64,000 nt of DNA from Trichoplax sp. H2 (Eukaryota): the NCBI GenBank assembly GCA_003344405.1, contig NOWV01000010.1:868001-932000 (forward strand). The letters run 5' to 3'. Of the stretch, positions 38,728 through 64,000 are shown one piece after another. The notes beneath the pieces were generated by a model, which was not told the DNA's origin, did not search any database, and saw nothing but the letters and a program-made list of their open reading frames with translations. The position numbers and the translations under genes are program-made. Each line of letters starts with the position of its first letter. The first letter of the stretch is position 1.

Positions 38728-40853
38728 ATATATATATATATATATATAACAATATTCTAGATAGACGTTTACATTTACTATCGAAGGGCCGAAAGACTCT
38801 TTCCACCACAGCTTGTGATAATTCATTCATTTTCATTTTTAGAAGTTATACAGTACACGATACAGTATCCATCATGCATTGCAGTACAGTTTCTCCAATA
38901 GAAAGTGTCACTCCATATTCCTACAGTACAGTAGTACGATGGCACTGTACAGTACATTGTACAGTATTTTAAGAGCTCTTATACAGTACAGTACTGTACT
39001 GTACAGTACATACTGATACAGTACAGTACTGTACTGTACACATTTGGCATGATACAGTACAGTACAGTATACAGTACAGTACATTGTACAGCTGTCGTAC
39101 TGTACACTGTGAGTTTTGACGACAATCGTCTTGTACAGTACATGTACACTATCCACATTTGCCATGATACAGTATACTGTACTGTACATTGTACAACAGT
39201 CGTACTGTACACTGTGACGACAATCGTCTTGTACGGTGGCATATACAGTACTGGACCGGACAGGACGGACTGAATTCCTAAGATGTATTTTAAGAGCTCT
39301 TCTACACATTATTGAGTAACTGGACCGTGCCCATAGCAGAGTGCCTAAGACCGGTCAGCGCATACTGTATGTATCATATTGGAGTAGAGCAAAACACTGC
39401 GCCCATAGTAAAGTCGCTTGAATAATTTGCGTTTTACTCCATGTCCAAATTGAAGTTAAGCCCAATCAAACTGCCTTCAACAGTGACAAGTTGCTTTCAA
39501 TGAGGTCAGTAAGAATAAAGTAAAGCTCTTTCTATTACGGTGCATTGGCTTAACATGAAAGTTGACACTGGCCATGTACTTAGTAGTACTTGGAAGTTTT
39601 GTAAGCTTCAAGTAGGAACGAGAGTGCCAGTGTCAATGGTGTCCACTTGAGGGAAGGTCATGTGGTACTGCCTAGTAGAATTGTTCACACTGTAGTAAAG
39701 ATCAATCATCATTTCTCATCCATAATCAATANNNNNNNNNNNNNNNNNNNNATATATATATATATATATATAACAATATTCTAGATAGACGTTTACATTT
39801 ACTATCGAAGGGCCGAAAGACTCTTTCCACGACAGCTTGTGATAATGCATTCATTTTCATTTTTAGAAGTACACTGTACAGTACAGTGTACAGTACACGA
39901 TGAAAGCGTCACTCCATATTCCTACAGTACAGTACAGTAGTACGATGGCACTGTACAGTACTGTACTGTACTATTGAGTGTACAGTACAGTACTGTACAT
40001 TGTATTTTAAGAGCTCTTATACTGTACTGTACAGTACTGTACAGTAGTACGATGGCACTGTACTGTCCTATTGAGTGTACAGTACAGTACATTGTATTTT
40101 AAGAGCTCTTATACTGTACTGTACTGTACAGTACTGTACACTGTGAGTTTTGACGACAATCGTCTTGTACTGTACAGTACAGTACTGTAGTGCTGTAGAC
40201 GTCGAGCGATTGGACGTCCAACGGACGTTCGGTATGTACAGTACTGTACAGTACGTTCGTTGTCAGATCGGACGTCGACGAACTGTACTGTACAGTACAG
40301 TACAGTGTACAGTGTACAGTACGTATAGTACAGTGTACTGTATACAGTCAGTTTGTACTGTACACTGTGACGACAATCGTCTCGTACGGTGGCATACTGT
40401 ATCCAGTACTGGACTGGACAGGACGGACTGAATTCCTAAAGTGTATTCCTAAAGTGTAAAGAGCTCTTAAGACCGGTCAGCGCATACTGTATGTATCATA
40501 TTGGAGTAGAGCAAAACACTGCGCCCATAGTGAAGTCGCTCGAATAATTTGCGTTTTACTCCATGTCCAAATTAAAGTTAAGCCCAATCAAACTGCCTTC
40601 AACAGTGACAAGTTGCTTTCAATGAGGTCAGTAAGAATAAAGTAAAGCTCTTTCTATTACGGTGCATTGGCTTAACATGAAAGTTGACACTGGCCATGTA
40701 CTTAGTAGTACTTGGAAGTTTTGTAAGCTTCAAGTAGGAACGAGAGTGCCAGTGTCAATGGTGTCCACTTGAGGGAAGGTCATGTGGTACTGCCTAGTAG
40801 AATTGTTCACACTGTAGTAAAGATCAATCATCATTTCTCATCCATAATCAATA
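38728..40853. repeat. ~1 kb segment present twice (38728-39731 and 39752-40853) on either side of a 20-N gap (39732-39751); contains TACTGTACAG-type satellite
   Basis: Both copies begin (TA)nACAATATTCTAGATAGACG and end CATTTCTCATCCATAATCAATA. The 3' ~380 bp are nearly identical, while the satellite-rich middles differ. Confidence 0.92.
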
Positions 40854-43800
40854 TTTTGGATCGTATTTCGCTTTGGAGATAGCATCAATCTTCATTTTAC
40901 TGTATCCTTGATTGCAACGTATGCCATCAAGTATCATGACTGCATTTTGGTGGATTGTTATTGGATAGTTTGTTTTGTAATGGCAACAATCCTAGCTCAA
41001 GAACTTGTATAGTCTACACGTAGTGAGTTATCTTGGTTTTTGATGCCGTATTCTATCGTCGAACGGAATTATCTCCTTTCGCAGTATACATCTCTATGCC
41101 TCAAGGGGAACAAGTTTGGACTAATTTGCTTCAAGACAGGTTACCCATATTATTATTTTTATCCCAATTTACTGTCCAGTCCGAAGATAAAATCAAGCAT
41201 CAATGTCACTATACCACATCGATAAGATGGATCTATCCGTCACTTTGATTCAATACTTGTAGAAGCGACACATGTAGTAGTAGTCATCACGACGATATGA
41301 CAAACGTTGATTAATGGATGAATTACTATTTTACTAATTTACAATTGTCCAATAATGCCCATCAGTAAGCAATGAATGGACAATATCCAGTCACTCGATA
41401 AACTATGCATCTTATTTTAAAAGGTCCTGTAATACGTAGGCCATGTCCAGTCGAAATTGTAATCCAATTTATTAAAGTACTGGTTATGTTGGACAATTGG
41501 GGCAAATTACAACTGAGAATGAACTAGGAGCAAGAGTACTGTACTACAGGATCGACTCATTAGCATGCTATTGAATTGTACGCCGGATAATAGATACGCC
41601 CTTCACTAAAAATGACTAGCCAGAGTCTTGCTACTTGTCTAGACTTTCTTGTTCATTTATTACATTAATAATAGTTATGAATTACTTGCTTGTATAGCAC
41701 TGATATGCAACCTAGAAAGATCTTGATATTCTGTAGCTTACAATACGGGCATTCATTAATAAAGTCATGCACTCTACTTGACAAGGATTGGTAATACGGC
41801 AGGTACTCTTCTTAAGTACTGTACATGAACAGAAAACGTGTCTTTTAGCCTAATAACGATATCAAATTGAAAGAATTCAATCGATTCATCAATTCACCAA
41901 TTAACATAATTTAATTTGATAGAATACATTCGTCCATATTCCCGAATTTTTTTTCTTGATAATATCATCCGTATTTAGACTATTCTCTCAAAAAGACTAA
42001 TGAATGAATGACTTTTAATTTCATTGACACGTGTTAACTTGTCATTATTTATAATTATTGGAAACTTCCAATTTCTCTCTTGCAACTATAAAACAATATT
42101 GTATTCCTTTGCTAGTCAATCATAAGGATTACTAATGATCGTAATGATTATCACTCAGATGAGTAAAAAAATGAACAAATTGAACTGATGAAATCTTGCA
42201 AATTGATGCTACACGAGCTACTATGAAAAATTGACAGGCATGACAACAGAATCTGCCCATCAGAACCTTTTTTCTTTCTTCTATCGACTCTGTGGTGTAC
42301 AGTACAATCAAAATTGGTAGAGATTCCATATAGATTCTGTTCAGATGGTTGTTTATAACAATATAAAACAGATTAAATGCTATAGTGTAATTGAGCTATC
42401 CAACGCTACATATACTCGTATATCCACTACACCTAATAATAATGATATAATGAGACACGGAAGCTTTTAAGATGTATTGGCACTTCAGAATTGGTCTATT
42501 TCTACAAACAATGCAAGGTCTAAATGGCCACTGTTGTTTTCAATGTGAATAATAATTACGACATAGTTCGAGCTCAAAAAATCCATTTCAACAAGCAATA
42601 CAACAGATGGAATAATCGAAGTCATCTTTGTTTATCAGTGTGAAGACTTGAAAAATATTATCTTTATTTAGTTTATGTTAGGATTATTTGGTTGTAATAA
42701 ACATCCGTTAGTAAGGTCAGTCCGTCTCCAATACTAAGGCTAGTCAATATTAATTAAGAAGAAGAAGAAATAAAAATAATTTCTATCATCGCAGCAGTAT
42801 TGACATGACAGATAGACGAACAGTTAATCGGCCATTGAAATATCCTGCCACGCGTACAATCAACTCCGTTCTAAATCATAAAATCTCGCCATCAAAATGG
42901 AAAGAGCTATTGTTAATCTGTATGGAATATGGTATTAAGTGTAAAACCATTCTAGAAAGATTGGCCACATCTGGTGATAAATCGATCTTTACAATTTTTA
43001 ATACCACATCACAACTACATCAATATACACAATAACTGCATGTTTGCTCAGCTAGCCCTAAAATCGCGACTTATTTTTATTCGTTTATTGTTATTTTTAT
43101 TTTTTATTACAAAATAATGAGAGAATACCGAAATTGGTGAAACATCCTTAATAAAGAGATCTTTCAATCAATGACTGCCATAGTACCGTACGCATGATCC
43201 AGGATATCACATGAATCCTTATTTACCCTGGGATAAAAATAAAATAATCAAAGAGACACGTAATCATCGTAGCCATGTGTCCTACTTAGTTTATCAATAG
43301 TAATCTACTATCAAACAAATTCAATCCGCTAATAATAGCTAAAGATATACCCTAACATCCTATACTTACAAACAAAGTATACGCTGCATACGTACCAGTA
43401 TATATATATATGTTGCATAGACGTTTGTATATCACTCTTTCATTAAAATCCATCAAAAAATTGAAAACAATCGAGTAAGCATCGCGAATGTTAAGGTATG
43501 ACACGATTCTTCTCGTTATCTTCTAGTTCAATTACTTCGATGCTTGCTTAAAAAAATTCGGATGTAGGTATTTTCTAATATACAACCTCAGTTGATACGA
43601 TGTTTATCGATATCAAAATATCATCAATTAGGGCAAGCAATATATTCGTACTATTTTACGCTATGGATATGATGAATCTTCTGTCCAAAAAATTTTAGCT
43701 CAGATTTTCTAGTTTTAGAAATATCAGTGTTGTTCAATTCAATACTGAATATTATTATATTATACATGCAGCATGTTCTTGAACGGGTTAAAGTGAAGCA

Positions 43801-44073
43801 TGTCATCTTGATAGTGATCTGGTATTGCAAAAGATATGACAAGACCTTGTTTAATACCTTCTTGTTCGTATTTTTACCATTTGATTATATTTAGTAAAAA
43901 TTGTCGAAATATTCATCTTAATTAATATTCTGTAGTATCCTTGATTTTTTGCCATAAAGTAGCATCCATTATAATTATCTTCCAATTTTATTATTATGTG
44001 CGTTATGTTTTCACTAAAATATAGTTTTTCTATTTTTTATACTAACAAAACTATGCAATTCTGATTTGATTAA

Positions 44074-47870
<3,797 letters not shown>

Positions 47871-50573
47871 GCTATTATGGCTATGTCATGGCAGTCTTTG
47901 ATCCATCTCACTATCACTGCGTTATCATTACTTTAGCATTGATAATAAAATATACAGTACTCTATAGCGAAGACATATATGCGTATATTAATTAGAATTG
48001 TATAATCAAATAATTATTTAACGTAATAAACAAAAATACTATAGGAAATATTTTAATGCAGTTGATTATTTTTACTAGAATATATCTTACTGTTTCGATA
48101 TGACCCTAATATGATACGAATAGCATTTATTTTAATTGTTCAAGTTTAAATCGCATTTAGCTGAATGATTACATTTTTAATGCAAGCGATTGTTATCGAA
48201 TCTGATTTAGTTTAGATAATCCATTTTAAAATATATATATATATATTAAAAGCTTTACCTATCTGAAGGGTAAAAGGTATACAACAAATTATCTGAAGCA
48301 TGCGATATTGTACCAAATATATCCTGAACGTCATATTCGCTATGAAATTTATATAATAGTAACGTCAATGTTACGCTTCATTTACCATCATTAATATCCA
48401 TGTAACTATTTAACTAACCACTAATCGGATTTGCACACTTGGTTGTGCATTGCGATAATAAAGTACATTATCGTAGCAAGACCATATTCAAACTTATTTC
48501 CAACTTCTGTTTTAATTATATTATATCTAATTTTGTCAATATCGATCAAATTGCTGAATATTTTTTATTGACAATATTTACGTATAAGGTTGCTCTAACT
48601 AATCAATAAAATAACTGGTGGCTAAAACATTAAAAAGAAAAATGAGTAGATTCTGTTAGTGTAAGTTCTTATTTATAAGAATACACGTATATGGCACAAC
48701 TTTGCATACCTAGTTGGTGGGTATCCATTGCTGTATATGATACTCCGATTCAGTTACTGTATTTATTACTGAAGTATTAGCGTTCAACTTGTATCATGAC
48801 CAATTGATCATGGCCTCCAGACCACATTAACCATTGAATCGAAGCTAGTGATGAAGGACACTCTGTGTATCTACAATCTACATCATCTTAACGAGCTTTA
48901 ACGTGCAATTTTTATTCATTAACGATTCAGTACGTGATAATACAGATTAAGATTATTGTACTATTGTAGCCTTTAGTAGATTTTATAACGAATATCCGCA
49001 TGCACAGTGTAGGGATGTCCTCATAAAGTGTGGGCACTTACGAAGATATTTTAACACTACATCATAGTTTACTGCCCTAAGTACAGAATAATTAATTATA
49101 ATGATCTGTAGGATGGAAACAGTTGCTGAATTGCATATATTAAAAACTTAGAAAGTACAGTGTCGCTTCCAATTAAGTGCTATGTATACTGAGTGCAATA
49201 CCGCAAAAGGAGAGATAAAAAGGTACTTTTTATTCCTCATTTAAGAGATTACAAAAGCAATAAGGATCTAAACACAGTAACATAATATAATTTATAAGGA
49301 TCTTCACTACTGGTTATCCACAGCAAGTGTTGTATGCCATTTGCAAGGCTACAACCTCAAGCAAAAAATACGCCAGGCATGGCACCCTTCCTATAAGATT
49401 GCATGAAGATCAAACAGTTAGTGATCCTGCTCGAAGGTATGAAAATGACTTCAGGCTATACAATACTACTTTACAGTCTATAATTAAAAGAATGAGAGCT
49501 ATCATTATTGTTTTTATTAAAGGGGTACAAGGCTTTCGTTCTGTTAAGGCGGATGAAGTCCCATTCCCAAATGGAAATACATAACTACGGAGGTAATTTT
49601 CAATTATAATTAAAAGAATCATTCATTTACTATATACTGTAGTATGTATGACAGTAGATTGGTGGCTATGATTACAATAGTTTCTGAAAAATGCCTACCC
49701 AAAGTGCAAGAGTACTAGCGTATCATCAATATCATAATCGTAAACATTGAACAATTTGTCACAGGAGGAGATATTTCCATTAGAGACTACAGTATATCGT
49801 ATGCAACTGTGGGTAAAACTTTTACTACAATTATATCGTAATTACAGGCCATAGCTTACTAGACTTACTCAGTTAAGTTTAGTAATCCAAGAAGACCATA
49901 ATTAAACACTGGGTATTGAAGATGACTTTACAACTGAATGGAACCAAAATGTGTTGAAGCAGTAGGAAAATATTCTATACAGATGGACAGTTGTCTTACT
50001 GAATAATTAATTAATTATCGAGCAAGGAAAATCAAGGCATAGGGAAATGCGATGATCTTCAAATGAAGATGACGATCATTTGCTAATCATTTAAAGCGAC
50101 GTAGCAAGTACAAATTTGCTTGTTGCCTTGCTTCAATAAAGTTGAAGTGTCTACAGTACTGTATGCTGTATTGGATAAAGTAGTTTTACAGGAGACTGGA
50201 TAAACAAGGTGGTGCGCTGCACACTCGTCCTGTACATTGAGTAAAAGTTGACTGTTGTGTTTAGTTGTTTTCGTACTAAAAAGACATTTGTTGTATAGTA
50301 AAGCCAGTATAATTTTAATAATGATATAGATCCAATTTTTAGTATAGTATGGAAATATTAAGGCGTTGGTGCCAACAGTATCTTATTATGCTGAAAAAGA
50401 TCCATTTGGCTGTTGCTCTCTCTATACACTGTACTAAACCGCTCCACGAATAGTGTATTTTGTATGCAGACGTCTTGCATCTGTTGACTAAACTACAAGT
50501 TATCTGCCGTATGTAGTCAAATAACAACTTACCTAGTAATTTTAAGCCGAACTGACGATAAAACGAATTAGTT

Positions 50574-50780
50574 TTAAGCATCTCTTTCTTTCTCCAACTT
50601 TAATGCTTCATCATTAGCATTGTAATTCTTATAAAAATTTTCGTAATTCCTAATTCTTGGCACTTGCACCGTATAACGGAAAACAAGTCCGCCAACCAGT
50701 CCAACTCCAATAGCGACAAATATGTCACGAAGGACTTCCGTTCGGAATAGATAACGAAGTTGTGGCTTGGCTGCTGACAT
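50574..50780 (-). CDS. COX6C: Cytochrome c oxidase subunit 6C; single coding exon with a probable 5'UTR intron at about 50783-50873
   Basis: 68 aa: KPQLR..L, one TM segment (IFVAIGVGLVGGLVF), then PR..YENFYKNYN, matching the COX6C pattern. Acceptor TTTGCAG lies 2 nt before the ATG. Confidence 0.85.
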   Translation of the reverse strand: MSAAKPQLRYLFRTEVLRDIFVAIGVGLVGGLVFRYTVQVPRIRNYENFYKNYNANDEALKLEKERDA

Positions 50781-50954
50781 AGCTGCAAAATATCAATAGA
50801 ATAAAAGTCAAGATTAGTGTCCTGTATTGAAACTTTGACACCATATAATCCATGTAATATTGCTATACTGACTTGTTTTTACCGATGCCGATTTGATATC
50901 TGAAGAAGAAAAAACAGTATGGCGGTTGCAAGTTAATCGAACGCGATTGGAGCC

Positions 50955-51200
50955 GTAACAGTACAGTACGCTATTAAGCTTGTCCTGTGGCTACAGTGTA
51001 CAGTACATTGGGTTGTACAAGTACTGTACACTGTAGACAATTTTCACAATAGATTGTCACGTGTCTCATCGAGGGTCTCTACTGTACTGTACTGTACTGT
51101 ACAGTGTACAGTACTGTAGGCAATGAACTACTGTACTGTACTGTACTGTACTGTACAAGAAGAAGACCCGGACCGGACTGATCACTGCCTCAGGCGGACG
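50955..51200. repeat. ACTGT pentamer arrays plus GGAC motifs upstream of COX6C
   Basis: TACTGTACTGTACTGTACTGTACAGTGTACAGTACTG, (TACTG)5, CCGGACCGGAC, GGCGGACGGAC. Confidence 0.85.
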
Positions 51201-52226
51201 GACATTTTGCCCAAATGTGGAGAAATGACTACGGTACTTAGCAATGCTAAAGGACCTTCCATGTCTGCTTTTTCTAAATCGCTGATATTAATTTAAAGAA
51301 CATTTATGATCTTATATAACTGTTTCCAAGCAGATAGTAACAGGTAATAAAGATTCAATGTAATATTGCTTAATTGAGAAAAATCAGTCCATTCAGCACT
51401 GTACTGTACAGTATTTTGACAGCCCAGCTCGATTTTGTCAGCAGATGCAAATAGGACGGCATACTGTATGTACAGTAATATATAATAATAATATGACTGC
51501 ACTTTACTGTACACTGTAATAATAATTTTGATATATTCAGGTTTCAAGCAGAACTTTGTTTGGATTCAGTGGAATATTACTTAATTTAGAAAAGTATGCA
51601 AATTATGGAATCGAGCATCGGCAAACTGACGCAATACTCGTAACTAATAACTTACAGTACTGTATTGCGTACAGTTAGAATCTCTTACTGTTAGGCTTTT
51701 CTTATACTGTAGCTCAGATTTTCATCAGGTGCAATTATGCAAAACACATTCACATATTAAAAGACGAGTACACAACAGTATTCATTTGCGTTTAATTCAT
51801 AAAAATGTTTAATATTAGAATATAATTCGATCGCTATTAATACAGTTTCAGAAAATGCAAATTAATACTAAATGGCAGCAGGGCACATTTTAAGGAAATA
51901 CTCCTACAATACGAATATGACGGTGATAACCTATAATGTATATTGCAATTAGAATTGACATATACAGTACATGGAGAACAGGTTTATAGTCCAGTGAATA
52001 GTGCCGTGATAGATCAGATAGAAATATAATTTGACCCAATCTGCAGTATATTGATGTCTATCGAAATCATTCATAGATCGTTATAAAACAGAATTTTAAG
52101 AAAATAGCTCTCATTACTTAAAAATATAAAATTAACTAATTAATCCATTTGAACTGAATTCGAAAAGATTTAAAAAATAATTTTGCTTCAAGGAATGGTC
52201 AAGTACTCAAAGCAGTTTGAAACCTT

Positions 52227-55480
<3,254 letters not shown>

Positions 55481-56684
55481 TCAGGAAGAATCTGACTAAG
55501 TTACGATTCTCACGTTATTTTAATACCTCTAATTTTGACCCCTAGCTAAAAGCTCATTCAGTACAGTACCTGTGGATACCAAATGTGCGCCATAGTGACA
55601 GTGATTGATACAACAGCCTCAGCAGACGAGGACGGGAGGAATGCAAATGCAAATGCAAATGTCGGATTATGACGTCAAAAGTTCACCTTTGACACTGCAT
55701 CTGAATAGCACTTCAGAACCTACTCTCTACAGTACAGTACTGTTCAACAGGCGTAAATCTAGGTCTATTTATTATGCAAACTGCACCGCATCAAAAAGAA
55801 CCTCTTGACAATGCTCTCCCCTCCCAAAATTTCCACGAATTTTCAGCCATGCTGTAAAGAGAACTGGCTCCCACACGTACAGTGCTGTGCATACATACTG
55901 TACTACATACCAGTGCCCATTACACAGTACCCTAATGTAAAAGTAAACAGTACATAGATTTTCGGAAGCATGGTACGGTGAGCCAAAAGGACCCCAAATT
56001 TGGGCTACTGCTGCATGGACACTGAGAACTCCCTATGCTTCGGATACGGAATAATGTACAGTACTGTACACTCGAAATAGAAGGTCTCTAGTACTGTGTA
56101 CAGTACAGTACACGATGGATTACAATACTGTACAGTACAGTGTACAACAGTCATTCGATCATGTGCATTCAGCACAGATATGCAGTTAGCAGTCAATAAT
56201 AATTATAATCAATTATAATCAAGACTGTATAATCAGTTTTATTGATGTATGTGTTATGGCCAGGTGGATTGGCTACTAATCCGTATTCAGAACTGCACTC
56301 CACTGCATTGATTATTTTTCAACGACATTAAATCCTCATTATTATGAATATCGTAATCTATGAAAATTTCAAGATTTTTTCAAATTGACAGTGTTGTAAT
56401 ATCCAAAAAATACAGCGACGAAAGTACTATAAATATGCATAATTAATCATTACTTGAATGCATATTAATCAATTAATTACTTATTATCTCTTTATATATT
56501 GTACTGTACGTGTATTGCCATTAATTACTGTAGTAATCATAGAGATATAACATTTTAGGTTTTTTCTATGGTAACAATTATAATAATATCAGTATCATCT
56601 CATATACATCGTATAATGCACAGTACAATACTACATTAATACTGAGATTATATCTTACAGTATATACTGTAGTATACACTTTAA

Positions 56685-59600
56685 CTACGATATGATTACC
56701 CGGCTTTGTAGATGAGAATGAAGCGGCTTCACCCTTTGCTTACGCGATAATCCTAATCGAAGGGGTTTTGAAGACTGCCAAGGACGAAGTTTTGCTATAT
56801 CATTTTGCTTATTCTCAATTATGCCTATTAAAAATCATTATTGTTATACTGTGATGAGAGATTCAGTTTGTCGATTTTAAGTAAAGAAAACGTAAAATTA
56901 CAGGACTGTTCACATATTTAATTATATTACAATACATGTAGATGTAATTATACAATACATATATATATATACTCGTATAGCACCTTGTTGCGAGGAATGA
57001 AGGAAAGTTGGGGTTGCTCCTGGCGCCTAATAATATAGTTATTAAATCCAGAAGTGATTTCAGTACGTCATTGACCATTCAGCAATCACAGCAATGATGC
57101 GCAATTTTATTGCAAAATTTTGAAATATAACGTTACTATTATGTTTTAGAATTGATTTTACAGTAATCTATTTCATACGCATTTATAGTAAAGTACCTCT
57201 TTTATATTGGATACGGAGGTACAAAGGTCTGAGGAGCTACTTAATCGCAGGGTTGATAAGTGATCAGTTGTAGACTGATAGTTGAAATACTTCTCAGGAT
57301 TTGTCAAGTCAGGAGTTTCACTCATAGGATTCAACTTACGAGTAGAAATTTTCTGTTTACTCATATCAGAAATATAACTGTATTGAACATCCTCAATTTC
57401 ACTGACATAATCAGCATCACTATCAGCACCATCACTATCGATATTGCTATCATAAACTTTTCGACGTTTATTGTCATAATTACTGTTTTCATTTTCGTAA
57501 CCACTATCGGATTCACTGTATTGACTTAATTCCGAATTATAGCTTATTTCGTGATTGCTATCTAACGAACTGTCTTCTGACGCTTCATCGTAATCGGTTA
57601 AGATTGACGGAATTGATGACTTTAAGCAAATATTCGGTTGAATGCTGTTTGTAACGCTCTCAGGGATACCATTACCTGATTGGAGTGTGATTAAATTGTT
57701 GGTGAAACTTTGATACGTATCCGGACGTAGTTCGTTAATTTCGTAATCAATTTTTTTATCTCTGTCATCTGCCTCAGTCCATTGACCCAAGAAACTAGGC
57801 GGCATTTCAAATGTCTTAGCCTTGTGTTCAAGAAGATATTCATCATCATTTTTCGAGCGTGCAGCGGCTTGTTTATTGCGATTGCCACAAGGCGCAAGGC
57901 TGTAAATTTTATTAATAATTTTGGTATTAATTTTAAATTTAGGATTAATTTGAGCATTTACTTTCAAAATTGCCAAACAATGACCAAGATGGCAGTATTG
58001 GATAATTTTATCGACATGACCATAGCATGTAGTGAAGAATTCTCTCTTTAAGTCCTGTACTAGTAGACGAGTAAATATCTCGCTCGATGCGTATCGATTG
58101 TTCGCCTCTGCTTCATAAGTGAAATTCATAGAGCAACTAAAATGATGGTCCTTTACTCTACTATCTGCTACCGATCGTGTATCTAATGTACGATTTAAAA
58201 ATTGATTAATGTTAGTCACTATCAGTAATATGATACAATAAATCTACTATGTTATCAGCACATCCTAGTATTTTGCTGCAAAGAAGTTGAAGCAACATTT
58301 ACCAGCTGTGCTTAATTTCAGCTTCTTGTGATGAGAGCTAGGATGAGTGGCGAAGAGGCTAGCATTATCAACTTGTTTTCTTTTATGATTTAAGCAAGCA
58401 AACGTCGGACTGATTGTAGATTGATCAATGTAATCCTTTAAGTGATGTGTTATACTGGTAGCTCGATAATAGTTGGTTATCAGAGTACAGAGTAAATATA
58501 GTATCTTATCGTGATTCCATGTGTTAGTTGAGTTGGTTGGATATATATCATAGTTAGCACCATAAGAAGTAATCCAAATGTTAATCTTCTCTAGATTTAA
58601 CCCACTGACTGTGTTTTGATATGTTGCAGTGATGACTTTATACTGCAAGAGATAATCATTAAATCTTTTAAATACAACATATTCAAAGTGACTTAGTTCT
58701 TGGAATGAAGCAGGAAGTAATACATGTCCGACATCGGAGAACTTATCATCCGGGACACTCCTCAGAGACTTCAAGGGATAATCTAGGCACTCCATAAAGG
58801 CTCTTGAGGAGCAATACATCCTCCTGTCGCTACTGAATCTTATAATTTCAGAATTAGATGCATTTATTATTGACTGTGGAAGACTGAAACTGAGTTTGGT
58901 AGTAATAAACCGAAAAGGCCCATGATTATAACCGGCTTTAGTGAATGAGTTCTTTAGTTTAATAGCTATACAGGTTTTTGTTAATATCCGAGATTTTGTT
59001 CGTTTTTGCATAATCATAAAATGCTTGACGATATCTTTGCTACTGTTTCCATTGCGTCGTGCTATTGGTCTCATATTTTGGTGCTTATCAGATAGCGGTA
59101 TAAGAGTTCTCATGCGTCTTAAACGAGCTTGATTCTTTGGATGCCATGCGAGTAGTATCTTACTTTTGAGATAGAGGCTGATATTTTCCCTTGAACTCTT
59201 GATGGTTACCAATACATTCGTTTGTAGAGTCTTCTTGCACCTTAAAAGAAAACAATTTACAACATGGTCATCAATTTAATAAAAGGGTTTAAAATAATGA
59301 TGTTATAATTACAACATAATGTATGCTGTACTTATCATCCGAAAGTGTAGCTACGCGACTTATTCCATTTCTTGATAGACATAAACTTATACTTAATAAA
59401 TCTCTCAACGGATTCCATAGGATATCATGTCGAATTCCTAATTTTATTAGTAAAAATTTTGAAGGATTTCTATATGATAAATAACTAAAGGTGGACTATA
59501 CCACAAAAAGTTAACATTTTATCTGAATCTTTCAAAACAGTTATCAATATACCTCTGATTTAAAAGCAACTTGAAATTAATAGAAGCATATGCTAGATGT

Positions 59601-59786
59601 CTATTTACCGTTAATAATAACAGTCCCATCTGATGAAAACTGATGATTCCAACAAATTTTCTTAGAATTGCTGGATATAATGCTGAGCTCTTTCTTCGTA
59701 TTATTATTTGCGTTACAAATGGAATTATCGGGTAGATTATCTAATAAAAGATGTCCAAATCTTTTAATCCAACTGTTATGTAATGG
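56685..59786 (-). CDS. Multi-exon protein of at least 808 aa with a C-terminal RAD51-interaction-type motif (RAD51AP1/RAD51AP2-like); exons 59786-59609, 59437-59332, 59240-58303, 58218-57197, 57026-56984, 56824-56685; start codon not located
   Basis: Six exons join in frame across GT-AG introns (phases 1,2,1,0,1) and link the 315-aa and 348-aa ORFs. Acidic Ser/Asp-rich region; last exon GIIENKQNDIAKLRPWQSSKPLRLGLSRKQRVKPLHSHLQSRVIIS*. Confidence 0.72.
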
Positions 59787-60844
59787 CTAAATTAAAATAT
59801 ATTAGAATATTATATGCACATATAACTTTCATCTACATATTGGATCTCATAAATGGCCTAGCTATTGCTGAAGAATGGGTTTAGGAATTAGGAAGGTGGA
59901 GGTCAAAATCTTGAGATAATAAATACTGCACTAATGTCACGATCAGGTGAAATCAGTAAGCCTAAAACTTGTTTAATTCTGTATATGCAGTTTGGCTCAT
60001 CATGGTACGTACTAGTACAAATTTTAAGAGACTATTCAAAATTGAAACTTTATAAACGAAGAATTTTCATTGAATTTATTATTAAGATACGGTCTAAAAT
60101 TGTATGTGTACCAAGTGTTGCTATTTTGAAGATACGATTTAGATTGGAGCTATTCATATAAGAAGTTTCCCTGTATTGCTGACGGTACAACTTAAATTGT
60201 GTATACACAGAGGTAATTCGTTAGGATCCGTGATTACCATTAAATGATCAGTTGTATTCTCACGAACAGGATTGAATTCATTCAAGTTTAAACTAATTAT
60301 TCCGATATCTTATAGTGATTCTTTTGATGAGCTAAATATAATATGCTATCAAATAATATGATGACTAAAATAACTGAAAAATTATAATTATATAATCAAT
60401 AAATCGACATTTAAATCTTTAGAGCCCACCTGTTATCTGACCTTCAATATTACTTTCCGTAGCGACAAGTATCAAAACTCGTATCCTTTTATTAGAGTAG
60501 GAATAGGAATAGGAATATCCACTAGAAAAAATGTATTATTTCAAGATATTTTACTTTCTTTAATTTAAAGTTAAGCTATTTAAGATCATTTTATAAAGTT
60601 TTAAGTACATTTTCACTGTTGAATATATTTTAAATATCGATTAAACGTTTATTCTAGGCTATCGAAGATAATTTGCCATAATTACTCCATAACCACTAAG
60701 CAAAATTATTGACGAAGTAGAATTTTGCAATTTTGATCTTGATATTCTATATAAAATTGCCACTATTATTACATAATAGTCTGCTATACCTTATGTTCTT
60801 AATGGATTTCATGATACTTGGTCGTTTTTTCTTTTCTTGTCTTT

Positions 60845-61464
60845 GAAAATATGAGTTCTGGTTGAGAATTAAAAATTCTTCACTGTAAGTTGAAAATTTT
60901 CACTGGTCTTTCTTGCATCCGTAGAAAATTTTCTTTGAGTTATTATAGTCTTGTCCAAAATTTTTCATTTCAACGTGATGCGATTCAATTCCTGAGGTGA
61001 AATAACTGCGACTGTAGGACATGGCGAATGAATCATAGCAGTCGTTGTGATGTTGATCACGTTCTACAGCACCACGATTTACCACGCAGTCGCTAACTAC
61101 GACGACAATTTTAATCATGCTATGCTGAATGATCTGCTATGTCATTTAAAGATAGATTTACTCGGTTTCCTCGAAAATATAAGTTCTGGTTGGAAATTAA
61201 AAATTCTTCACTGTAAGTTGAAAATTTTCTCTGAGTTATTATAGTCTTGTCCCAAATTTTTCATTTCAACGTGATGCGATTCAATTCCTGAGGTGAAACA
61301 ACTGCGACTGTAGGACATGGCGAATGAATCATAGCAGTCGTTGTGATATTGATCACGTTCTACAGTACCACGATTTACCACGCAGTCGCTAACTACGACG
61401 ACAATTTTAATCATGCTATGCTGAATGATCTGCTATGTAATTTAAGGATAGATTTACTCGGTTT
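60845..61464. repeat. Recent direct tandem duplication (60845-61168 and 61173-61464)
   Basis: Near-identical copies offset by 328 bp at the start and 296 bp at the end. Copy 1 has 32 extra bp bounded by a repeated GAAAATTTTC. Confidence 0.93.
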
Positions 61465-62370
61465 AAATACTGAATTATTCTATTTGCTGATAGTATGATT
61501 ATATAGAATCGTCTGCTTTAAATGCATATGCTATAATGATCTGTTCTGTAATTAATTTTTAAGACGGATTTACCCAGTTCGCATTCTAGATTATTATGTT
61601 TGTTGTAGCATGTATAGGACATTGATTTTAAGAATAACATACTGAAATGATCTACTATGTGGTTTTTAGAATAAATTGACTAGTTTACATTCTGAGTAAT
61701 TACCAGTATTAATAGCACAATTATAGGATTGTTGGTTTTAAAGTGCTATACTGCAATGATCTGCGATGTAATTTTAGGATAGATTTATTGCGTTGCCGAT
61801 AGCAATTATATGATTATCGATTTCAATAAAGCACGCTGAAGCTATCTACTGTACTATGTGATTTTAGAATACATTTACTACTTCACACGCTGAGCTATTA
61901 CCTGTACCAATAGCACGATGATAGTATCGCTAACTTTAAACTTATATGCTAAAATGATCTGTTATAGAAATTTAGGATAGGTTTACTTACTTCACACACT
62001 GAATTATTATATTTATCGATGATACAATGATAGGATTATCCATTTTAAATTGAAATACTAAAATGATCTGCTGTATAATTTAAGGATAGATTTCCTCGAT
62101 TCGTAAACCATATCATTATTTTGATCCATAATATGATACAGGATTGTTGATTTTGCAATGACACACTAAAGTAACATACAGTACTATGTAATTTTTAGAA
62201 TGGATTTTACTTAATTCACTTATTAGATTATTACGTTTACCTATAACATGATTATGGAACTGTCGATTTTAAAGTAGCATGTCAAAATATTGTACTATGC
62301 AAAGTTTTAACCTAAGCGTAGGCAGCTTATATAACTGAATCATTACATTTTTGGATAGTATGATTTTTAG
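61425..62370. repeat. Degenerate tandem array of ~105-110 bp units
   Basis: ATGATCT(G)CT(A)TGTAATTT(T)AGGATAGATTTAC-like anchor at about 61426, 61536, 61647, 61756, 61850, 61954, 62063 and 62180. Confidence 0.8.
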
Positions 62371-63765
62371 AATTTCTTTTTATTAATAAAACAGTTATCT
62401 ACAAAAAGAATTTGTAATGTTAATAAGTTATGTTTCTAACATTTGTTTCCATGAAAGTAGAAACCTTTTACTGCACGTATCTTATCGTACAATAGTTACA
62501 ATTTATATATATACAGATATTGTCATACCGTAGATATCAGATTAGATATAATTTGAAGTCAATCTTGTATCTGCTTGCTTAATTGAGAATAGAGAGGAAT
62601 AGATGGGTTCTGCAATTTCTACAGCGTTGTTAACATTGAACGTCATAAATATAGCAATATTTGACATGGAATAAAATGATATACTAAAGCAGCATTACAA
62701 GCAGGATAGTGTGTTATGTTAATAGAAGTTTAGATTTCATTTGTAAATACTTTGTAGTTTTAGGAATAGTTGTATCTCCTTGTTATAATTATTGTTGTAG
62801 GATACCATATTTATTGTTCTGTTGTAATTGTATTACTCTAATTGTGTATTATACTGCGTTACGACTATACTTTATGCTGTATATTTATGGGATGTAATCC
62901 TTTTACGGACTAAATGTAGCGGTTATGTGTATATTACGCATCTGTCAGTGCTCAGATATAGATATACAACTTATTGTTGGGATGTAATAGTAATACTAAT
63001 AAAATATTATAAACTTTAACTTTTTTACAATTTATACCCAATTAAGACTTACAGTTATAAAGGTTTGAATACGAGTGTATCTAGGAAGGTAACTACCTAG
63101 GCTTCGATTTTAATGTGACGCACAAACATTTAGTATTATGAATAAACATTTCTTGGCTGCTTTAAGATCTTTTCTTAAAATTTCAATGTATTTATTTATT
63201 AAATCTTATAGTAATAGTTGTGAAGATATTATCAGATTATTGTTGAAACAGTATCGGTAATAATAATTTACAATACATGTGAGATAACAATTCGTCATAG
63301 ATTATTTTAGCATCTACGCGTGAGGTGCTAAATCTGCTGATAACACAAATTTTAAATACTATTAATTTATTTCTTAATATTACTACAGAGTGATACAAAT
63401 ATTTGTTACCGACGAAATCGCTTAAGTACTTTAGGTCAACATAACTGAAACCAATTACTAAGTATATTTTGTCAATATCGAACGGAGTAAAATTCTATAA
63501 TTACGAAAGTAATTACAGTTAAAATGTTACTTGCAAAACATAGTACCAATGTGGAGTTATATTAAAGATACCTTTTTAAGGTATAAAATGACATTTAGGA
63601 GTATACGTTCACAATATTAATCTATCATCTCATGATATATAATCGTATCACTCACTAATATTATAGCATCGTATTATCATAACATATCCGCTATTTAGTT
63701 TAAGCAAGTATTACGCAAAGATATGATGGTAGCGTAGCAGTAGTATGATAGCTTAATAGTATCAT

Positions 63766-64000
63766 TTAATCAACTTCTTCGATAGTTGGTTCACAACCAG
63801 CATTCTCGGCTTTCTTACTATATTCACTCGAGCTTCCCGAATTGTTTGGAGCACCGCTCTGATGGATTTTTGACATTATCGGCATACACACTTTTTCCAA
63901 TTCTTGACGTTGATATTCAAACTCATCTACTTCAGCCATCTGGTTCTTGTCTAACCAAGTTAATGTCTCATTACATTTATTCAAAACGGCGGTTCTGTCT
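63766..64000 (-). CDS. HSP70: Cytosolic HSP70, C-terminal end (gene continues beyond window)
   Basis: [39 protein letters not shown]...PTIEEVD*: lid region plus the cytosolic EEVD motif. Confidence 0.95.

What the first reader, a model, noticed from the sequence alone, without database searches (positions are those of the whole stretch)
56685..59786. Hidden last exon makes two orphan ORFs a RAD51AP2-like gene
Seen: the 348-aa ORF has a phase-0 donor at 57197/57196 (GAG|GTACTT). A 43-nt exon (57026-56984) and a 140-nt exon (56824-56685), neither in the ORF track, continue the frame to IAKLRPWQSSKPLRLGLSRKQRVKPLHSHL. Known (from memory): RAD51AP1 and RAD51AP2 bind RAD51 through a C-terminal R(L/I)GLSR..R(V/I)K.LH motif, and RAD51AP2 is a long, poorly conserved, meiosis-specific protein first described as vertebrate-specific. 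Inference: the length (over 800 aa), the otherwise unrecognisable sequence and the RP....PLR lead-in fit RAD51AP2 better than the shorter RAD51AP1. This would be a meiotic recombination cofactor in an apparently early-branching invertebrate. Caveats: the motif is short and the donor of the 43-nt exon (GTGCTA) is weak.
Basis: partly seen in the sequence, partly recalled or inferred. Interest (0 to 1): 0.85.

Follow-up and report, generated by a model that had tools for sequence, protein, structure and literature searches.

The report
Placozoan gene with RAD51-binding tail
A long, fast-evolving Trichoplax gene ends in the same short RAD51-docking peptide that human RAD51AP1 and RAD51AP2 use, so this recombination-helper motif is far older than vertebrates, although the gene model itself is already public as a 'hypothetical protein'.

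Summary
On the minus strand, the donor at 57197/57196, the 43-nt exon 57026-56984 and the last exon 56824-56685 are as described. One spliced RNA contig joins exactly these junctions.

The last exon scores above Pfam's cut-off for RAD51_interact (PF15696: 38 bits, cut-off 25, E 1.9e-9). The residues shown critical in human RAD51AP1 and RAD51AP2 are all present.

The exons are not hidden everywhere. Window exons 59786-56685 translate letter for letter into residues 13-804 of the GenBank protein RDD46174.1, 'hypothetical protein TrispH2_001474, partial' of Trichoplax sp. H2. The T. adhaerens reference model TRIADDRAFT_57931 is truncated and lacks the motif.

The other roughly 760 residues match nothing: no Pfam family, no relative among 1.84 billion representatives, no confident fold.

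The RAD51AP2 assignment is only partly supported. Length, an orphan body, no WVPP-type DMC1 site and the motif's flanks lean towards RAD51AP2. The motif core is closer to human RAD51AP1 (13 of 15 identical). I read it as a long-form RAD51AP-family protein of unresolved orthology. No data bear on a meiotic role. It is a new member of a known kind, of moderate interest.

The parts
61379..61414 (-). Annotated first coding exon (12 codons, starts with ATG, GT donor). Uncertain: an identical second candidate lies at 61083-61118, and both sit inside a 296-bp tandem repeat.
   Evidence: two exact matches, both followed by GTAAAT; repeat 60924-61464, period 296, 1.8 copies, 97% matches; Trichoplax sp. 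H2 model starts with these 12 residues. No RNA evidence.
59609..59786 (-). It has no in-frame ATG. The T. adhaerens model uses an internal acceptor at 59740 instead.
59332..59437 (-). Exon 3 (106 nt)
   Evidence: 100% match to P0002 residues 72-107
58303..59240 (-). Exon 4 (938 nt), within the 336-aa open frame 58265-59275. It includes a strongly basic stretch, P0002 residues about 121-220 (58901-59200), with net charge +8 to +9 per 40 residues.
57197..58182 (-). Exon 5 (986 nt), within the 356-aa open frame 57173-58243. It includes an acidic, serine-rich stretch, P0002 residues about 541-700 (57341-57820), with net charge down to -7 per 40 residues, and a KRRK cluster.
   Evidence: RNA contigs of run X12 cover 57730-58154 and the X11 contig covers 57196-57273.
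56984..57026 (-). Exon 6, a 43-nt micro-exon
   Evidence: both of its junctions are in RNA contig record 8 of run X11; it is present in P0002
56685..56824 (-). Exon 7, the last coding exon (140 nt; 46 codons after the split codon, then stop TAG at 56687-56685). It encodes the whole RAD51-interacting motif.
56718..56762 (-). Core RAD51-interacting motif: LRLGLSR (Site-M of human RAD51AP1), two residues, then RVKPLH (holding the Site-C Leu-His). This is P0002 residues 784-798.
   Evidence: PF15696, 38 bits, E 1.9e-9. Alignment to PDB 9qnc_B. Unique in the window. No variant in the three runs that cover it. Site names from PMC12704761.
56300..56684 (-). 3' untranslated region, at least this long. 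The RNA contig runs past the end of the laid stretch.
   Evidence: record 8 covers 56300-56823 and has about 50 more letters beyond 56300

Best explanation
This is one minus-strand, seven-exon gene of a placozoan. Its sequence is identical to Trichoplax sp. H2 TrispH2_001474. It encodes a protein of about 808 residues that is fast-evolving and mostly unstructured or unrecognisable. The short last exon carries a RAD51AP-type RAD51-interacting motif.

Shown here: the exon structure at the 3' end, the Pfam membership of the motif, the presence of every residue known to be critical, and the lack of any other recognisable domain.

Inferred mechanism: the C-terminal peptide docks on RAD51 as the human RAD51AP1 peptide does. 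[quoted passage not shown] The Leu-His of KPLH (Site-C) would act as a surface anchor. This would tether the rest of the protein to RAD51 filaments, where it would stabilise filaments or joint molecules. The rest includes a basic, possibly DNA-binding stretch and an acidic, serine-rich stretch.

By family it belongs to the RAD51_interact motif group (RAD51AP1/RAD51AP2). By architecture it is the long, RAD51AP2-like form. I do not assign it as an orthologue of either vertebrate gene. It looks like an undifferentiated or early-diverged form: the core matches RAD51AP1 and the flanks resemble RAD51AP2.
For: - Motif: PF15696 scores 38 bits on the last-exon frame and 32.3 bits on the full protein, against a cut-off of 25.
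- Closest solved structure: the best PDB match is the RAD51AP1 C-terminal peptide in 9qnc_B, E 0.0042, with 14 of 24 aligned residues identical and 13 of 15 in the core.
- Critical residues: R, L, L and H of human RAD51AP1 (R316, L319, L328, H329) and of RAD51AP2 (L1134, L1143, H1144) are all present (paper passages, compared). Site-M LRLGLSR is identical, and the Site-C Leu-His is present (passages of PMC12704761).
- Position and exon: the motif sits at the extreme C-terminus, 10 residues before the stop, inside a short last exon. Kovalenko et al. state the same arrangement for both human genes.
- Splicing: one RNA contig confirms both junctions.
- Gene model: the window is identical to public model P0002 over residues 13-804.
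- Constraint: 19 of the 26 variant places seen in other runs fall in the coding sequence. Of these, 13 change the protein and 6 do not, and none touches the 15-residue core.
- Body: no relatives and no confident fold.
Against: - RAD51 binding was not tested.
- The motif is short.
- RNA evidence is one low-depth contig from one run for the last three exons, plus fragments within exon 5. The junctions of exons 1-5 rest on gene prediction only, and the two public models disagree with each other at the 5' end.
- The single-sequence structure models are too poor to show that the body is disordered rather than simply unmodelled.
Confidence: 0.75

Rival explanations
1. It is a true orthologue of vertebrate RAD51AP2: a long, RAD51-only, meiosis-specific recombination cofactor that existed before placozoans and bilaterians split.
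For: - About 808 aa with a body that has no relatives. [quoted passage not shown]
- No [FW]xPP DMC1 site. Mouse RAD51AP2 co-precipitates RAD51 but not DMC1.
- The lead-in SKPL resembles SRPI, which is needed for RAD51 binding by RAD51AP2. H-L after the LH resembles Y-L-K.
- The gene has large exons, then a small penultimate exon, then a short motif exon. Human RAD51AP2 has three exons.
- The C-terminus is basic: 5 K, 5 R, 3 H, 1 D and 1 E in the last 59 residues. The human protein has 7 R, 5 K, 3 H and 1 acidic residue in its last 55.
Against: - The core is closer to human RAD51AP1, 13 of 15 identical, than human RAD51AP2 is to RAD51AP1, 11 of 16.
- The S of SKPL is T in runs X1, X4 and X11.
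- The flank evidence amounts to about four positions, and I placed SRPI by residue numbering, not from a sequence I saw.
- There is no body similarity to anything in a library of 1.84 billion representatives.
- There are no expression data tied to meiosis. The only transcript evidence comes from a bulk metatranscriptomic library.
Confidence: 0.25
2. It is the placozoan orthologue of RAD51AP1, a general homologous-recombination factor, whose body has expanded and diverged beyond recognition.
For: - The core motif is 13 of 15 identical to human RAD51AP1 and Site-M is identical.
- RAD51AP1 is itself described as largely intrinsically disordered, with separate DNA-binding stretches. This protein has a basic stretch and low model confidence.
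- RAD51AP1 is named in an invertebrate, a sea cucumber.
Against: - It is more than twice the length of RAD51AP1 (335-352 aa).
- It has no WVPP or other [FW]xPP motif.
- A phmmer search of the full protein against PDB matched only the C-terminal peptide. The full-length human RAD51AP1 chain 9qn8_B did not reach E 10.
Confidence: 0.1
3. The public model merges too much. The real RAD51-motif protein starts inside exon 5 and is about 370 residues long, close to RAD51AP1 in size. The upstream 336-aa frame would then belong to another gene or to an untranslated or alternative region.
For: RNA contigs cover only 57730-58154 and 57273 onwards to the 3' end. No RNA was seen across the 58302-58183 intron or further upstream. 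Exons 2 and 3 have no in-frame ATG. The 5' exons differ between the two public models.
Against: - The 336-aa and 356-aa frames are adjacent on the same strand. A canonical GT..AG intron of 120 nt joins them in frame.
- Both independent public models join them.
- They are the only frames of 110 aa or more in 24 kb.
Confidence: 0.08
4. The motif is a chance or convergent look-alike and does not bind RAD51.
For: The motif is short. A similar stretch in human RAD54 proved not to be required for RAD51 binding.
Against: The Pfam E-value is 1.9e-9, above the curated cut-off. No shuffled window, 0 of 200, held the strict pattern. The position at the C-terminus, the dedicated short last exon and all critical residues agree with the known family. 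The core is invariant while flanking residues vary.
Confidence: 0.03

Closest known systems
Trichoplax sp. H2 hypothetical protein TrispH2_001474, partial (GenBank RDD46174.1; P0002), and T. adhaerens TRIADDRAFT_57931 (XP_002114284.1; P0001)
   Same: This is the same gene. Window exons 59786-56685 translate identically to P0002 residues 13-804. P0001 is the T. adhaerens counterpart: 14 mismatches over the aligned part, plus gaps caused by different 5' exons.
   Different: P0002 stops four codons short of the true stop and is unnamed. P0001 ends early inside exon 5, with four residues that P0002 and the window do not have at that point, and it lacks the last 200 or so residues, including the motif. 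Neither record names RAD51.
Vertebrate RAD51AP2 (human 1159 aa; Kovalenko et al. 2006, PMC1636435; Sci Adv 2022, PMC8754306)
   Same: Both are long proteins with no recognisable domain apart from a C-terminal RAD51-interacting motif encoded by a short last exon. Both have a basic C-terminus. The lead-in is of the S-[KR]-P-[LI] type, and there is an aromatic-like residue followed by Leu after the LH. Neither has a known DMC1-binding P-motif.
   Different: No similarity of the body could be shown. The core motif is nearer to RAD51AP1. Meiosis-specific expression is unknown here. This gene has seven exons against three. I saw no RAD51AP2 sequence, only residues named in paper text.
Human RAD51AP1 (335/352 aa; cryo-EM with RAD51 filaments, PDB 9qnc and 9qn8; PMC12704761)
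   Same: Site-M LRLGLSR is identical and the Site-C Leu-His is present. The core is 13 of 15 identical. The presumed docking mode on RAD51 is the same. Both proteins have largely low-complexity bodies with basic stretches.
   Different: This protein is 2.3 times longer. It has no Site-N (KxxKWVPP) and therefore no predicted DMC1 site. There is no alignable body. The flanks of the motif differ: NQSL against SKPL before it, and P-N-A-T against S-H-L-Q after the LH.
RAD54 N-terminal stretch with 50% similarity to the motif (Kovalenko et al. 2006)
   Same: It is a short basic motif of similar pattern in a RAD51 partner.
   Different: It is internal rather than C-terminal, it is not required for RAD51 binding, and RAD54 has a helicase-like ATPase core. 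No such domain is found here.

Membership tests
RAD51_interact motif proteins (Pfam PF15696: RAD51AP1 and RAD51AP2) | Score at or above Pfam's gathering cut-off (25 bits) | tested here: met
   38 bits, E 1.9e-9, on the last-exon frame. 32.3 bits, E 1.1e-7, on the 804-aa protein.
RAD51_interact motif proteins (Pfam PF15696: RAD51AP1 and RAD51AP2) | Residues whose mutation abolishes RAD51 binding: the Arg and second Leu of RLGL, and the Leu-His of KPLH | tested here: met
   All are present. Mutational data come from PMC1636435 passages and PMC12704761 passages.
RAD51_interact motif proteins (Pfam PF15696: RAD51AP1 and RAD51AP2) | Motif at the extreme C-terminus, wholly encoded by a short last exon | tested here: met
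   The 140-nt last exon holds the motif, and the His lies 10 residues before the stop. The exon's junction is confirmed by RNA. The rule for both human genes is stated in PMC1636435.
RAD51_interact motif proteins (Pfam PF15696: RAD51AP1 and RAD51AP2) | Physical binding to RAD51 | not testable with these tools
RAD51AP1 | Site-N / WVPP P-motif upstream of the RAD51 site, which binds DMC1 | tested here: not met
   There is no [FW]xPP anywhere in P0002. The only Trp near the motif lies in R-P-W-Q, six residues before LRLGLSR.
RAD51AP1 | Body alignable to RAD51AP1 (about 335-352 aa) | tested here: not met
   The protein is about 808 aa. In a phmmer search of P0002 against PDB, only the 41-aa C-terminal peptide matched; the full-length chain 9qn8_B did not reach E 10.
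RAD51AP2 | Long protein with no other recognisable domain or relative | tested here: met
   About 808 aa. PF15696 is the only Pfam hit. The phmmer search found only the query itself among 1.84 billion representatives. Atlas model pLDDT is 0.30 and the AlphaFold2 mean pLDDT is 31.7.
RAD51AP2 | RAD51AP2-type flanks of the motif: SRPI before R-x-G-L and Y-L-K after L-H-x | tested here: inconclusive
   Here the flanks are SKPL and H-L-Q: S, P and L identical, and K/R, L/I, H/Y similar. I placed SRPI by residue numbering from paper text. The S is T in three other runs. No RAD51AP2 sequence was seen.
RAD51AP2 | Sequence similarity of the body to vertebrate RAD51AP2 | tested here: not met
   The phmmer search with P0001 (body residues up to exon 5) found no protein other than itself. 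I cannot confirm that vertebrate RAD51AP2 is in that unnamed library. The protein is poorly conserved even among mammals.
RAD51AP2 | Expression restricted to meiotic cells | not testable with these tools
   The only transcript evidence is contigs from two bulk RNA libraries. No tissue or stage information is available.

The most novel reading that the evidence does not exclude
The long RAD51AP2-type cofactor predates vertebrates and was already present in the common ancestor of placozoans and bilaterians. Its features are a RAD51-only tail, no DMC1 P-motif and a body that evolves too fast to recognise. The RAD51AP1/RAD51AP2 split would then be ancient. The gene would also be a usable marker for the still unobserved meiosis of placozoans.
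Probability: 0.2. Interest if true: 0.55.

Novelty: new member of a known kind. Interest (0 to 1): 0.35.

Why it matters
Reviews and the founding paper call RAD51AP1 and RAD51AP2 vertebrate-specific (passages of PMC3401455; abstract and passages of PMC1636435). A placozoan gene with an intact Site-M and Site-C shows that this RAD51-docking peptide goes back at least to the placozoan-bilaterian ancestor. The peptide is almost unchanged while the rest of the protein has diverged beyond recognition.

That gives a natural experiment on which parts of these proteins matter. It also gives a simple system, with a single long-form gene seen so far, for asking what the non-motif body does.

On the practical side, the T. 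adhaerens reference model for this gene is truncated and should be corrected, and the Trichoplax sp. H2 entry could be named.

The gain is limited. The gene model is public, and any routine Pfam scan of it would flag the motif.

Tried and rejected
- Own-genome search: no genome is held for this window, so I could not look for a second RAD51_interact gene in the same genome.
- Word-index protein searches:
  - The last-exon frame, searched against longer proteins, gave 13 candidates and none significant. It missed P0002 because that protein is a non-representative member of P0001's cluster.
  - The 336-aa exon at near lengths gave 759 candidates and none significant.
- Exhaustive phmmer search with P0001 found only P0001 itself. 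P0001 lacks the C-terminal motif, so this search could not retrieve RAD51AP1 or RAD51AP2 through the motif.
- ESM Atlas:
  - The last-exon peptide gave no usable hit.
  - The body of P0002 gave no feature hit, and the best structural TM by query was 0.32, mostly to bacterial TPR proteins. I regard these as meaningless, since the Atlas model has pLDDT 0.30.
- AlphaFold2 on P0002 without an alignment gave mean pLDDT 31.7, with 0 residues at 70 or above. I therefore ran no fold search.
An archaeal stand-in would not have been informative.
- Earlier findings of this scan held nothing for this genome, this sequence or these gene names. The eight notes listed concern archaeal Rad51-like proteins and do not bear on this gene.
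- Literature:
  - 'RAD51AP1' with 'cnidaria' found 0 papers.
  - 'RAD51_interact' found 0 papers.
  - 'Trichoplax' with 'meiosis' and 'DMC1' found 1 paper, on synaptonemal complex proteins, which I did not read.
  - A six-term search listed 20 papers, and none of them held RAD51AP1.
  - PMC4787752 has no passage on invertebrate orthologues.
- Read laying: a joint 56979 to 59704 in run X1 (side 21 letters, 'between: not known') and the 23-25-letter pieces of long X1 contigs are short matches in AT-rich sequence. I set them aside. X11 and X12 lack cover over most of the gene, and this says nothing about expression.
- A sub-threshold Pfam hit of the last-exon frame to the SBD lectin domain (12 bits, cut-off 20, E 0.27) was dismissed.
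Full report
**What is in the sequence**

- The donor is GAG|GTACTT at 57197/57196.
- The 43-nt exon is 57026-56984, with acceptor TTAG|GCG and donor AAG|GTGCTA.
- The last exon is 56824-56685, with acceptor AATAG|GC.
- Read in phase, it ends in the quoted peptide, then QSRVIIS and a TAG stop at 56687-56685.

The two large frames are 57173-58243 (356 aa stop to stop, 349 aa up to the donor) and 58265-59275 (336 aa). They are the only frames of 110 aa or more in 40000-64000, 2 of 2. The DNA there is about 33% G+C.

**Transcript evidence**

Four runs were laid on 56300-60850, and all four gave placements.
- Run X11 is a metatranscriptomic RNA-Seq library. It holds one 694-nt contig (depth 5.68) lying on 57273-57196, 57025-56983 and 56823-56300.
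- Both joints read CT..AC on the + strand with the cut shifted by one. That is GT..AG on the minus strand, at exactly 57197|57026 and 56984|56824.
- X1 and X4 cover the introns without a break, as genomic DNA would.
- X12 (RNA) covers only 57730-58154, inside exon 5.

No RNA was seen across the more upstream junctions.

**The motif**

I scanned five frames against Pfam.
- Only the last-exon frame matched: PF15696 RAD51_interact, 38 bits against a cut-off of 25, E 1.9e-9. A sub-threshold hit to a lectin domain was dismissed.
- Against PDB, the best match is the human RAD51AP1 C-terminal peptide of 9qnc_B (E 0.0042). Of 24 aligned residues 14 are identical, and 13 of the 15 from LRLGLSR to KPLH.
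- The strict pattern occurs once in the six-frame translation of the window. It gave no hit in any of 200 shuffled windows.

**Whose gene it is**

- The 349-aa exon finds one protein, T. adhaerens TRIADDRAFT_57931 (P0001, 615 aa), at 96% identity over 45% of the query.
- Its 90% cluster holds a second member, RDD46174.1, 'hypothetical protein TrispH2_001474, partial [Trichoplax sp. H2]' (P0002, 804 aa).
- Joined in a script, window exons 59786-59609, 59437-59332, 59240-58303, 58182-57197, 57026-56984 and 56824-56685 give 796 residues. These are identical to P0002 residues 13-804, plus four more residues and the stop.

The window is therefore this placozoan gene. The 'hidden' exons are hidden only in the T. 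adhaerens reference model. That model leaves exon 5 early, ends in four residues that P0002 and the window do not have at that point, and uses different 5' exons.

The first 12 codons of P0002 have two identical candidate sites, 61414-61379 and 61118-61083, inside a 296-bp tandem repeat. Exons 2 and 3 have no in-frame ATG. The 5' end therefore stays open.

**The rest of the protein**

- PF15696 is the only Pfam hit on P0002.
- The 336-aa exon has no relatives at near lengths: 759 candidates, none significant.
- An exhaustive phmmer search with P0001 against 1.84 billion representatives returns only P0001 itself.
- P0002 against PDB matches only the RAD51AP1 C-terminal peptide, not the full-length human chain.
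- The ESM Atlas model has pLDDT 0.30. An AlphaFold2 run without an alignment gives mean pLDDT 31.7, with no residue at 70 or above. I ran no fold search on such a model.
- By composition, residues about 121-220 are strongly basic, about 541-700 are acidic and serine-rich, and the last 40 or so are basic. There is no [FW]xPP motif.
- 26 variant places were seen in other runs. Of these, 19 fall in the coding sequence: 13 change the protein and 6 do not. None touches the 15-residue core, although two lie just upstream in the last exon. The body evolves fast and the core does not.

**How it most likely works**

These points come from passages I read, not whole papers.
- In PMC1636435, mutations R316A, L319Q, L328A and H329A in RAD51AP1 strongly reduce RAD51 binding, as do L1134Q, L1143A and H1144A in RAD51AP2. 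In each human gene a short C-terminal exon encodes the whole RAD51-interacting region.
[quoted passage not shown] The Leu-His (Site-C) sits in a shallow surface groove as a recruitment anchor. An upstream KxxKWVPP (Site-N) is the DMC1 site.

Here Site-M is identical, the Site-C Leu-His is present, and Site-N is absent. I infer that the tail docks on RAD51 filaments in the same way and tethers the body there. The body carries a basic stretch that may bind DNA. The binding itself and any effect on recombination are inferred, not shown.

**RAD51AP1 or RAD51AP2?**

For RAD51AP2:
- the length and the orphan body;
- the lack of a DMC1 P-motif, given that mouse RAD51AP2 co-precipitates RAD51 but not DMC1;
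- the gene layout;
- the flanks of the motif.

On the flanks, the text of PMC8754306 says that SRPI (mouse residues 955-958) is conserved in mammals and needed for RAD51 binding. It also reports the human variant p.R1131Lfs, which removes the last 29 residues. Combined with L1134 of PMC1636435, this places SRPI directly before R-x-G-L. That placement is my inference from residue numbering. Here the four residues are SKPL, and human RAD51AP1 has NQSL. After L-H-x, RAD51AP2 has Y-L-K. Here it is H-L-Q, and human RAD51AP1 has N-A-T.

Against RAD51AP2:
- The core is 13 of 15 identical to human RAD51AP1, while the two human proteins share 11 of 16.
- The S of SKPL is T in X1, X4 and X11.
- I could not obtain any RAD51AP2 sequence.

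A core like RAD51AP1 with flanks like RAD51AP2 is what an undifferentiated or early-diverged form would show. I therefore file the gene under the motif family and call it RAD51AP2-like in architecture only.

**What is known**

- Reviews and the founding paper call both proteins vertebrate-specific.
- One open paper names RAD51AP1 in a sea cucumber.
- My searches found no paper linking RAD51AP1 with cnidarians. None of the 20 papers listed by a six-term search that included Trichoplax and placozoa held RAD51AP1.
- No paper held the Pfam family name.
- These searches cover open-access text only. Supplements were closed.

**Verdict**

The RAD51-partner reading is well supported. The RAD51AP2 label and the meiotic role are not established. 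The gene model is already public, and a routine domain scan would reveal the motif. This is a new member of a known kind, of moderate interest for the antiquity of the motif and as a correction to the T. adhaerens reference annotation.

Noticed in passing
window 60924-61464: A 296-bp unit is repeated 1.8 times at 97% identity. Each copy holds an open frame of about 75 aa on the minus strand, and each includes the 12 codons that the Trichoplax sp. H2 model uses as its first exon. The annotated start codon of the gene is therefore duplicated, and its true site is ambiguous.
   Followed up: partly
window 60422-60502 and 60792-60857 (minus strand): The T. adhaerens reference model TRIADDRAFT_57931 uses two small 5' exons here that the Trichoplax sp. 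H2 model omits. It also uses an internal acceptor at 59740 instead of 59786. No RNA evidence was available to choose between the models.
   Followed up: partly
window 56685-59786 (coding exons): Among the variants seen in other runs, 13 change the protein and 6 do not. That is a high share of protein-changing differences and suggests weak constraint on the body of the protein. The 15-residue motif core carries none.
   Followed up: yes
window 56771 and 56795 (last exon): Two protein-changing variants lie just upstream of the motif core: Ser to Thr at the residue before K-P-L, in X1, X4 and X11, and Ala to Thr eight residues earlier, in X4 and X11. The lead-in used to argue for RAD51AP2 is therefore itself variable among placozoan strains.
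   Followed up: yes
window 40000-57000 and 60000-64000: Apart from this gene there is no open frame of 110 aa or more in 24 kb on either strand. Neighbouring genes, if any, have only short exons, and I did not annotate them.
   Followed up: no
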